A stretch of 64,000 nucleotides of DNA, taken from Paraspadella gotoi. Its lineage: Eukaryota; Animalia; Chaetognatha. The stretch lies in the NCBI GenBank assembly GCA_051294375.1, contig CM119271.1:5507991-5571990 (forward strand). The letters run 5' to 3'. The notes beneath the pieces are model-generated. The model saw nothing but the letters and a program-made list of their open reading frames with translations. It made no database searches and was not told where the DNA came from. The translations under genes and the position numbers were made by a program. Shown in pieces: positions 24,501 to 32,708 of this stretch; position 1 is the first letter of the stretch, and each line of letters opens with the position of its first letter.

Positions 24501-27500
24501 TAATTGATTTTTACCGAGCAATTAGCTCGGTGAAAATGTTTTTTTTTTTTATTTAAAGCAGTTTAAAAATACAAAATTTTATTGAAAATTACATGATGAA
24601 CGTTAAATTAAAATATGTTTGTAGTATTATAAAAGAAAAGATAAGAAAGGAGAAAAAAAACATCATATTTCTTATCAAGATCAGGATTATTATATTTTTT
24701 GTCCATAATATAAAGAATAGAGAGGGACCCTCGACGCCTCAAATTACAAAGGTAGAGTCCATGAAGATAATTTATGGCAGCTCGAAATTTTCGACGTAAA
24801 AAAAATTGGTGGCCTTCGTCACTCTATTTCGTTCCGTAGGGTACAAAGGATCAGCATCGCGTAGAAAATTTCTAACTCGATTTTTCTTCCTTTCTTCTTT
24901 TCTTTTTAGTTTTTTTAATTTTTTTTAAAATTGGGTGCGAAAAGTTCAATACACGCAAAGGCTTAAAAAAAAAATACGACCTGGACTCCGAGAGAGAGAG
25001 AGAGAGAGAGAGAGAGAGAGAGAGAGAGAGAGAGAGAGAGAGAGAGAGAGAGAGAGAGAGAGAGAGAGAGAGAGAGTTGGAGAATCCGCGATAATTGCTT
25101 AATTACACTAATTCGCATTGATGTTTTTATATCTCTCTCTCTCTCTCTCTCTCTCTCTCTCTCTCTCTCTTCTCTCTCTCTCTCTGATACGCTTTCTTTT
25201 TTTTTACTTTCAAAAAGAATTGTCTCTCTTCTCAACCGAAGTTCGAGGCGAAGCTCTCTGGGTTTTTGTTTCACTTGACTCCGATTAAGTTTATTTTTAT
25301 TTTTTTATTTTTTTTAAAATTTTACAATAGCTGAAAATTCGCTAATCTAGAGAGGACTTCATCTCTGGGGCTCTGTAGAACTGTGTTTCGAGAGAGAGAG
25401 AGAGAGAGAGAGAGAGAGAGAGAGAGAGAGAGAGAGAGAGAGAGATGAGAGAGAGAGAGAGAAGAGAGAGAGAGAGAGAGAGAGAGAGAGAAGAGAGAGA
25501 GAGAGAGAGAGAGAGAGAGAGAGATTCAGTCCCTTAAAACAATGGATAAGTACGGCACGTCTTCAGTCATTCATTATTTTTTCAGTTCGAACTCGAAAAT
25601 TACTCATCCGCTATAATTTATTTCATTTTGAGGTTTTGACCTTTTTTTCACGTGAAAATCGAAATTTAAGAAAAGAAAATTTGACGACTTTTTAGTCGTT
25701 TCATTCTCCCGCTTTTTTCTTTTTTTTTAATTTCGTCGTTTATTTTTGTCATAAATATCCTTTTGCGTGAGTTTGACGAAGGAACTTTACAGATTGAAAT
25801 AAAACGAATACAAACTGTTTTGATGTTGATTTTGGATTTTTTCTTTAAAGTTTTTTTTCTAATTTATTTTCACTTTAACTGATAAAATTAGTAACAAATT
25901 TATAAGTTTTAAAAATGTCTAAATGAACGGAATAAAAGTAAATAAACCAAAAAATGAAACACAAGATAAAAAAAAATTAACTTCAAACTTTCGTTTCGTT
26001 TTCAATTACTTTTTTTTACTCGACCTTTTTTTTTTATCTTTTTCTTTATCTTTAATTTTATTTCCATTGATTTTGAATCCATCTCTAACATCTCTCTCTC
26101 TCTCTCTCTCCCTCAGCAGCGAAACAGAGACATCGATCGATCGCTTCGATCTTGAAGCGATGGATTCGTCCGACGCTTCCGGATCGAAATCGGCGAAAAA
26201 AAAATCGCGCCTACGCAATGCCGACTCTTCGCCGCCTTACGCTGGACCGGAATCTCCGGCCGAGAACCCGGACGAACCCGGCCAATCTCCCGGCTTCCGA
26301 CGAACCGCCTCCACGCCCTCGCGACGCAAAGCGAAGCCCCAACCGGGCGACGCCACTCTTCGCCGCTCCGCCTCCAACGCCGAAGCGAATCCGCCCCAAA
26401 CTTATTACCTCAAGTACACCACCAAGGACGCGCCGCATCAGGTCCGCTTCGTGCCCGTCGATGCCGCCGCCGCGGTTCAGGCGGCGCCGCCGCCGCGCCG
26501 ACGACTCCGCCACCTGCCGACCGATGGAGAGGATCCCGATGACGCCAAGAGCGCCATCGGAGACAAATGCGCCGGTTGCATGGCGTCGTTGTCGTCGATG
26601 GCTACTCAAACGCTGCGGAAGTCCGAGGGGTTGCTGCGTTCGTTCTGCCGCGTAAGACGAACAGCAGAGGAACCCAAACAGCGCAGCGGATACAACGTGA
26701 AGGGACTAGAGACGATCCTCCACGAGAAGGAAGAGAACGAAGAGCCTGGGGAACTCACGAAACTTCCCGTCGATGAGGAACCGAACGAGGAAGAGGAGAA
26801 GAAAAAGAAGAAGAAGGAAAAAAAGAAAAAGGACACTCGACCTCTCTTCATCTTCTCCGATAGAAACTACTTGGTTCGAGCGGCGAGGATGTTGATCGAG
26901 TGGCCGCCGTTCGAAGCCGTCATTCTCCTCGCAATCGCCGCCAACTGCATCATCATGGCCTTGGAAGAGTATCTCCCCAACAAGGAGATGTCGCCGCTCT
27001 CCATCGAGCTGGACAAATCCGAAATTTATTTCCTCGTCATTTTTTCCGCCGAGTGCGTGATAAAGATCCTGGCTCTCGGTTTCGTGCTTCACCCGGGATC
27101 GTATCTGCGGTCGATGTGGAACATTCTAGACTTTGTCGTCGTCGTCACCGGCCTGGCGACCTTCCTCTTGCAGGATTTGGGCATCAACTTGCGAATTTTG
27201 AGAGCAATTCGGGTACTTCGGCCGCTGAAGCTCGTCGCGGGCATTCCGTCGCTTCAGGTCATCATGTTCTCCATCTTCAAAGCCATGATTCCGCTGATGC
27301 AGATTGGCGTACTCATCCTCTTTGCCATCCTCATATTTGCCATCATCGGAATGGAATTTTACAACGGACGGTTTCACAAAACCTGCTATTTGACGGATGT
27401 GGATGGAAACATCACCGAAATGCTTGACCCCGATGACCCTCGACCCTGTACCATCAGTCCCGACCCACCCATGGGCGCAAACGTGTGCCCCAATGGCACC

Positions 27501-32708: not shown

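What the first reader, a model, noticed from the sequence alone, without database searches (positions are those of the whole stretch)
26160..31190. Entire four-domain Cav2 coded by a single exon: candidate functional retrogene
Seen: 5031 nt with no stop or intron, all four S4 segments and an intact EEEE filter, while the neighbouring CHT1, Derlin and K2P genes have introns. Established: animal Cav alpha1 genes normally have dozens of exons and rely on alternative splicing such as the EF-hand exon pair. Inference: retrotransposition or wholesale intron loss produced a splice-invariant channel. No poly-A tail or target-site duplication is visible, consistent with an old event.
Basis: partly seen in the sequence, partly recalled or inferred. 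Interest (0 to 1): 0.72.

Follow-up and report, generated by a model that had tools for sequence, protein, structure and literature searches.

The report
Intron-free calcium channel, likely old retrogene
An unidentified animal encodes a complete nerve-type (Cav2) calcium channel in one unbroken 5-kb stretch of genomic DNA, likely an old mRNA-derived gene copy kept by selection and likely one of several intron-poor sister copies; it lacks the usual synapse-anchoring tail and has an altered partner-binding helix, so it is predicted to work outside the classic synapse.

Summary
26160-31190 is one 5031-nt frame (1676 aa) with four ion-transport domains, four charged S4 segments and an EEEE filter. 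It is a bilaterian Cav2 (tree 100/100 and 99/97; Cav1 rejected, p-AU 6e-5). Contigs of public runs, probably DNA, carry it unbroken, so it is not patched cDNA. Neighbours have introns.

Three corrections. (1) It is not a lone case: contigs of at least two other Cav2-like genes lack introns over long stretches, while other Cav contigs look intron-bearing. (2) An unnamed relative (72-77% identical) seems to have one intron at most, so the event is old. (3) 'Single exon, splice-invariant' is unproven: an acceptor-like site lies 40 nt before the ATG.

New points: the beta-subunit helix has Trp at the conserved Gly and no QXXER motif, and the tail stops 28 residues after the IQ motif with no DDWC ligand. 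The relative shares both kinds of change.

Best reading: an old functional retrogene in an intron-poor Cav2 sub-family (0.55). No precedent in seven literature searches or in this scan's earlier notes.

The parts
26160..31190 (+). Uninterrupted coding region of a Cav2 alpha1 subunit, 1676 aa (P0001)
26091..26119 (+). Polypyrimidine (CT)n tract ending in CAGCAG; likely splice or trans-splice acceptor 40 nt before the ATG
   Evidence: sequence; the in-frame stretch upstream scores as non-coding, -0.7; use not shown
23076..23081 (+). Candidate donor GTAAGC of a possible upstream exon (unverified)
   Evidence: sequence only
26583..26708 (+). N-terminal motif (aa 142-183) shared only with P0234; shows the N-terminus is coding and in the same frame as domain I in both
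   Evidence: 58% identity, E 1e-9; profile search returned only P0234 among 379 candidates
27189..27230 (+). Domain I S4 voltage sensor
27597..27599 (+). Filter glutamate E480 (domain I)
27792..27833 (+). Altered AID helix (aa 545-558): Y554, W557, I558 kept; Trp553 at the conserved Gly; no QXXER motif
   Evidence: predicted helix, pLDDT about 81-83
28317..28358 (+). Domain II S4
28575..28577 (+). Filter glutamate E806 (domain II)
29223..29273 (+). Domain III S4
29565..29567 (+). Filter glutamate E1136 (domain III)
30174..30218 (+). Domain IV S4
30441..30443 (+). Filter glutamate E1428 (domain IV)
30669..30827 (+). GPHH / EF-hand region (aa 1504-1556)
31086..31190 (+). IQ-type motif and truncated C-terminus without a DDWC-type PDZ ligand
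31473..31478 (+). First AATAAA after the stop; candidate polyadenylation signal
   Evidence: use not shown

Best explanation
This unbroken genomic reading frame encodes a complete Cav2 calcium channel and is likely an old retrogene, a reverse-transcribed Cav2 mRNA reinserted into the genome, kept by selection and likely one of several intron-poor Cav2 paralogues. Shown: the frame is intact, sits in the Cav2 clade and keeps the conserved sites. Inferred: a spliced mRNA lost its dozens of introns in one step before this species split from its unnamed relative, and the copy picked up an upstream exon or trans-splice site through the acceptor at 26119. Predicted function: a high-voltage-activated, calcium-selective channel that still binds calmodulin. 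It would escape G-beta-gamma inhibition at the AID, bind Cav-beta weakly or differently, and not be tethered by RIM or Mint PDZ domains. It would therefore serve non-active-zone calcium entry, while another paralogue, probably intron-bearing, does the classic synaptic job.
For: Genomic continuity: X1 has one 5136-nt contig over 26122-31210 with 0 differences; X9 (not flagged as a possible source, with its own SNPs) tiles 26013-31210, including the 5' flank junction; X4 has two pieces with a 51-nt hole at a skipped repeat. Constraint: 470 of 546 columns invariant in 12 reference Cav2s are kept, against 49 of 200 most variable columns; of 3 listed SNPs, 2 are synonymous and 1 is E to D. Ancestral Cav genes are intron-rich (PMC5379919 and PMC11828482, passages), and the neighbours here have introns. 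A candidate parent exists: a 949-nt paralogue contig has a pyrimidine tract just before 30420, at LFR|C, in X2, X3 and X4, where an unrelated database protein also runs out of register. Age: P0002 and P0234 group with the query at 100/99 and carry 1168 and about 550 uninterrupted codons. A 5' intron is typical of old retrogenes (PMC4772013, passages). AID: 46 of 54 distinct AID strings have Gly; Trp occurs only here and Ile only in P0002. Tail: 28 aa after the IQ anchor here and 30 in P0002, against 129-790 in the 9 references where the motif was found.
Against: No poly-A or target-site duplication. Other paralogue contigs also lack introns, including a 150-nt Cav1-like contig across the IS6 junction, which fits family-wide intron loss too. 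The intron-bearing 949-nt contig could be Cav1 rather than Cav2, and the intron status of the 5258-nt Cav2-like contig rests only on where its matches start and stop. Run types are guesses ('DNA?'); X1, X3 and X4 may be this assembly's source, and X2 and X3 are the same data. DNA of P0002 and P0234 was not seen. The AID keeps Y, W and I, and other animals tolerate C, N or F at the Gly site, so beta binding may persist. All functional statements are predictions.
Confidence: 0.55

Rival explanations
1. In-place intron loss: the gene arose by ordinary DNA duplication and then lost its introns where it stands, by recombination with its own reverse-transcribed mRNA.
For: No insertion scars. A 5' acceptor survives while all coding introns are gone, which is the polarity expected of cDNA recombination (own knowledge). 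Several paralogues lack introns.
Against: [quoted passage not shown] The neighbours kept their introns.
Confidence: 0.25
2. Lineage-wide stripping of introns from Cav genes: this copy is not special, and most Cav genes of this animal group are intron-poor.
For: The 2884-nt, 2388-nt and 880-nt paralogue contigs and a 150-nt Cav1-like contig all cross expected intron sites without room for introns.
Against: The 949-nt contig carries an intron-like tract at LFR|C in three runs (two data sets), and the 5258-nt contig behaves as if it has introns. Neighbouring genes are intron-rich.
Confidence: 0.13
3. A processed pseudogene or silent copy.
For: The regulatory motifs are degenerate, and the stem branch is long, 0.6 changes per site.
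Against: 1676 codons are intact; substitutions avoid conserved columns (86% against 24.5% kept); the relative shares the same truncation and N-terminal motif.
Confidence: 0.04
4. Assembly artefact or foreign DNA: cDNA or a contaminant patched into the scaffold.
For: The scaffold is gap-filled and holds error-rich duplicated stretches.
Against: Contigs from raw-read runs match the ORF with 0-2 differences each, and an X9 contig bridges the 5' flank and the ORF. CHT1 and Derlin exons score +0.94 and +0.86 under the ORF's synonymous codon model.
Confidence: 0.03

Closest known systems
Bilaterian Cav2 alpha1 (human Cav2.1/2.2/2.3, PDB 8x90, 7mix, 7xlq; Drosophila cacophony)
   Same: Four domains, charged S4s, EEEE filter, GPHH/EF-hand and IQ region; 54-58% identity to invertebrate Cav2s over trimmed columns; top sequence and fold hits.
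   Different: No coding introns; no QXXER; Trp at the AID Gly; very short II-III linker; no distal tail or DDWC ligand; several paralogues where most invertebrates have one Cav2 (PMC11828482, PMC8980814, passages).
Drosophila cacophony I-IIA splice isoform (PMC11828482, passages)
   Same: A Cav2 form without QXXER and with a poorly conserved Cav-beta site.
   Different: In the fly this is a mutually exclusive 117-bp exon of one gene; here it is fixed in a separate gene with no coding introns.
Flatworm Cav2A/B and cnidarian Cav2a/b/c duplicates (PMC11405698, PMC7456537, passages)
   Same: Lineage-specific Cav2 duplication.
   Different: The passages read do not describe them as intron-free, and cnidarian copies keep DDWC-like ends.
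Scallop intronless r-opsin2-4 (PMC5700196, passages) and old multi-exonic retrogenes (PMC4772013, passages)
   Same: Retroposition followed by further duplication beside an intron-bearing parent; gain of a 5' exon.
   Different: The coding region here is 5 kb and belongs to a four-domain channel; parent and synteny are not yet shown.

Membership tests
Cav2 alpha1 subunit | Four 6-TM domains with charged S4 | tested here: met
   domains I-II model pLDDT 84.9, top fold hits Cav2.1/2.2
Cav2 alpha1 subunit | EEEE selectivity filter | tested here: met
   E480, E806, E1136, E1428
Cav2 alpha1 subunit | Groups with Cav2, not Cav1 | tested here: met
   100/100 for Cav2, 99/97 for the bilaterian clade; grouping with Cav1 rejected, p-AU 6.5e-5
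Cav2 alpha1 subunit | AID with G-Y-x-x-W-I for Cav-beta (PMC7939481) | tested here: inconclusive
   Y, W, I kept, G replaced by W; helix predicted; binding untested
Cav2 alpha1 subunit | EF-hand, pre-IQ and IQ region | tested here: met
   GPHH and Ca_chan_IQ above curated cut-offs
Canonical presynaptic Cav2 (a common trait, not required for family membership: Trichoplax Cav2 lacks it, PMC7456537) | C-terminal D/E-D/E/H-WC PDZ ligand | tested here: not met
   ends 28 aa after the IQ anchor; no phase-0 donor in the last 120 nt to reach the downstream phase-0 exon
Canonical presynaptic Cav2 | QXXER G-beta-gamma motif in the AID (PMC11828482) | tested here: not met
Functional retrogene | Coding region lacks the ancestral introns in genomic DNA | tested here: met
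   intron-rich ancestry from PMC5379919 and PMC11828482
Functional retrogene | Intron-bearing parental paralogue in the same genome | tested here: inconclusive
   949-nt and 5258-nt contigs look intron-bearing, subtype or status unsure
Functional retrogene | New genomic location relative to the parent | not testable with these tools
   no genome held
Functional retrogene | Poly-A tail and target-site duplication (young copies only) | tested here: not met
   expected to be erased in an old copy
Functional retrogene | Purifying selection | tested here: met
   470 of 546 against 49 of 200 columns kept; intact ORF; dN/dS not computed
Functional retrogene | Transcribed | not testable with these tools
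   see Tried and rejected

The most novel reading that the evidence does not exclude
This animal lineage has swapped the usual invertebrate design, one heavily spliced Cav2 gene, for a retro-derived family of intron-free Cav2 genes. This member is a stripped-down channel that works without Cav-beta control, G-protein inhibition or PDZ tethering, and a relative has since gained a new intron in it.
Probability: 0.25. Interest if true: 0.75.

Novelty: new variant of a known kind. Interest (0 to 1): 0.52.

Why it matters
Cav alpha1 genes are standard examples of deep intron conservation and of tuning by alternative splicing, and most invertebrates have a single Cav2. A working Cav2 with no coding introns, in a genome whose neighbouring genes keep theirs, shows that those introns and splice options can be dropped, and suggests gene copies replacing splice isoforms. 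The protein is also a natural minimal Cav2, amplifiable from genomic DNA in one piece, for testing whether a Cav2 can traffic and gate with Trp at the AID glycine and without a distal tail.

Tried and rejected
No whole genome is held, so no tblastn for a parent and no synteny. Expression: no RNA holder listed. X2 was guessed to be RNA but has the same records and depths as X3 and carries intron-like ends, so I treat it as DNA; this says nothing on expression. Both metagenome locus scans found nothing (0 of 622 and 0 of 595 pattern matches confirmed), so no relative's DNA was seen. No named close relative: after P0002 (68%) and P0234 (71%), the best near-full-length hits were 50-57%, and the host phylum is unresolved; the sister position of P0278 (96/90) joins long branches and I do not trust it. 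The first FastTree misaligned P0234 and was replaced; in the new set a few rows, such as Apis and P0278, were trimmed short. Atlas searches gave only sub-0.9 leads. The single-sequence fold was uninformative (pLDDT 45). The idea that the exons at 32529-37013 are a spliced Cav tail was rejected as unlikely: there is no phase-0 donor near the stop, a phase-1 join stops in the second exon, and P0002 ends at the same place. dN/dS was not possible without orthologue DNA. The difference at 30584 was dropped from the SNP count because it comes from a paralogue contig; 2 differences in one X9 contig were not listed by the tool. Contig depth was not used as copy number. Literature searches listed no intronless or retroposed Cav2; the library lacks most subscription papers, and I read no supplements, where gene-structure tables could hide a precedent.

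Full report
Observation. The + strand frame 26160-31190 is 5031 nt with a single stop and encodes 1676 aa. Pfam finds four Ion_trans stretches, GPHH and Ca_chan_IQ. All four S4 segments and the four filter glutamates (E480, E806, E1136, E1428) are present. The longest ORF in 200 base shuffles was 273 aa. Neighbours are split: CHT1 pieces match consecutive parts of human CHT1 in separate frames (weak, E 5e-11; two other frames gave no CHT1 hit), Derlin matches in two pieces 2 kb apart, and one K2P piece matches on the minus strand.

Identity. The best PDB matches are Cav2.1, 2.2 and 2.3 (1552-1566 bits) ahead of Cav1 (at most 1311). A 35-row IQ-TREE tree (LG+C20+F+G4, PMSF) puts the protein in Cav2 (100/100) and in the bilaterian clade (99/97), on a 0.6 stem with two unnamed ENA proteins, P0002 and P0234 (100/99). 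Holding it with Cav1 is rejected (p-AU 6.5e-5). The phylum is unresolved. An alignment-based model of domains I-II (pLDDT 84.9) matches Cav2.1 and Cav2.2 best.

Not patched cDNA. The scaffold is gap-filled and has error-rich duplicates, so this needed testing. Nine listed runs hold 97-100% of the sampled words; I laid five of them. X1 has one 5136-nt contig over 26122-31210 with no difference. X9, not flagged as a possible source, tiles 26013-31210 and bridges the 5' flank. X4 has a 51-nt hole at a skipped repeat. X2 and X3 are the same data. Run types are the tool's guesses, but the runs hold the AT-rich flank and intron-like ends of paralogues, as DNA would. The 3' flank was covered only 20 nt past the stop. 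CHT1 and Derlin exons fit the ORF's synonymous codon usage (+0.94, +0.86).

Constraint. The protein keeps 470 of 546 columns invariant among 12 reference Cav2s but only 49 of 200 of the most variable columns. Of three listed SNPs two are synonymous and one is E to D. This points to a working gene, though transcription is not shown.

Paralogues, the main correction. Contigs of other Cav genes were laid with the query (both piece tables were cut). (a) A 2884-nt contig is colinear from 27675 to 28721, with 869 letters where the query has 809 and 91 where it has 76; the second spacing recurs in X1 and X9. That gives 299 codons from IS6 to the domain II pore loop, against 300-317 in six reference Cav2s, so there is no room for introns. 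This stretch includes the I-II exon that introns flank in Drosophila (117 bp; PMC11828482, passages; placement on this sequence is my inference). Its loose end reads Cav2-like (hand translation of 10 codons). (b) A 2388-nt contig aligns without gaps over 28450-28587 and reaches 28680-28721 within 149 nt; it is Cav2-like by my reading of the difference table. The human junctions it crosses are recalled, not from a call. (c) An 880-nt contig spans IIIS6 to IVS6 with at most 785 letters against 817; this is slightly shorter than any reference, so it is weaker evidence. (d) A 150-nt Cav1-like contig crosses the IS6 junction. Against these, (e) a 949-nt contig has a pyrimidine tract just before 30420 at LFR|C, where database protein P0278 also runs out of register; it may be Cav1 or Cav2. 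(f) A 5258-nt Cav2-like contig has matches that start and stop near expected junctions, which suggests introns but does not show them. So this genome holds several Cav2-like genes, some intron-poor, and at least one intron-bearing Cav gene.

Age. P0002 (1168 aa, 4310-nt contig) and P0234 (568 aa, 2055-nt contig) are 72% and 77% identical over trimmed columns. P0234 shares an N-terminal motif found in no other of 379 candidates. It follows the query to residue 517 and then runs into low-complexity sequence, and P0002 begins at residue 517. The simplest reading is genomic DNA of a relative with one intron between codons 516 and 517, 19 nt before the recalled ancestral site. That would be an intron gained after the loss. 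This is inference: their DNA was not seen, and they may not come from one species.

Gene ends. A (CT)n tract ending in CAGCAG lies 40 nt before the ATG, the in-frame sequence above it scores as non-coding, and a candidate donor sits at 23076. A 5' exon is common in old retrogenes (PMC4772013, passages). An earlier unchecked note on this genome describes an operon-like cluster, so a trans-splice acceptor is also possible. No poly-A or target-site duplication was found. 'Single coding exon' is shown; 'single-exon gene' and 'splice-invariant' are not.

Protein anatomy. The AID keeps Y554, W557 and I558 but has Trp at the Gly of the G-Y-x-x-W-I motif described as essential for Cav-beta binding (PMC7939481, passages). 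Of 54 distinct AID strings, from the 196 of 421 fetched proteins that matched the pattern (a bee-heavy sample), 46 have Gly, 4 Cys, and one each Asn, Phe, Trp (query) and Ile (P0002). The QXXER motif linked to G-beta-gamma binding (PMC11828482) is absent in both. The protein ends 28 residues after the IQ anchor, and P0002 30, against 129-790 in nine references. There is no DDWC-type ligand for RIM or Mint (PMC7456537, PMC11405698, passages).

Mechanism. Shown: an intact, constrained, genomic Cav2 with no coding introns, an altered AID and no distal tail. Inferred: origin by retroposition before the split from the relative, then further duplication, as described for scallop r-opsins (PMC5700196, passages) (0.55). 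Rivals are in-place loss through cDNA recombination (0.25), lineage-wide Cav intron loss (0.13), pseudogene (0.04) and artefact (0.03). Predicted: a high-voltage-activated calcium channel, calmodulin-regulated, free of G-beta-gamma inhibition and PDZ tethering, used outside active zones.

Comparison and novelty. [quoted passage not shown] Most invertebrates have one Cav2 (PMC11828482, PMC8980814, passages). Searches listed no intronless Cav2; a 623-organism channel survey has no match for 'intron' or 'retro' in its main text (10.1101/2025.02.15.638427, passages). PMC5095125 (passages) added only the general role of the AID. I read passages only, no whole texts and no supplements. This scan's earlier notes hold nothing on it. 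Verdict: real, a new variant of a known kind, interest 0.52.

Noticed in passing
window 21740-21905 (-): Probable terminal exon, preceded by a (CT)n tract, ending in EDEL-stop, a KDEL-like ER retention signal; its gene would lie head to head with the Cav2 and could share a promoter region.
   Followed up: no
window 32529-37013 (+): Four-exon chain with a continuous frame of about 320 aa ending in an RQGS-repeat low-complexity exon; the second exon gave a weak DnaJ_C lead (0.77), and codon support is weak.
   Followed up: partly
window 951-9456 vs 14232-19450; 34017-35274 vs 36037-37272; 46243-47867 vs 48527-50152: Duplicated stretches (78-94% identical, one inverted) beside short N gaps, with many small indels; likely gap-filling artefacts, so the second CHT1 copy may not be a real paralogue.
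   Followed up: partly
window 31337, 41490, 42427: Dispersed repeat with a 12-nt palindrome, often near GTCC/GACC-type microsatellites; one copy lies about 150 nt after the Cav2 stop. It resembles DINE-1/Helitron-type elements (recalled).
   Followed up: no
P0289 (Saccostrea echinata): A very divergent, short Cav2-like protein in an oyster (branch 2.27), suggesting other overlooked divergent Cav2 paralogues in invertebrates.
   Followed up: no
P0209/P0243 and P0278 (unnamed ENA contigs of 11-13 kb): Other divergent Cav2 proteins called as 590-990 uninterrupted codons on long contigs; if those are DNA, long-exon Cav2 genes also occur in other lineages.
   Followed up: no
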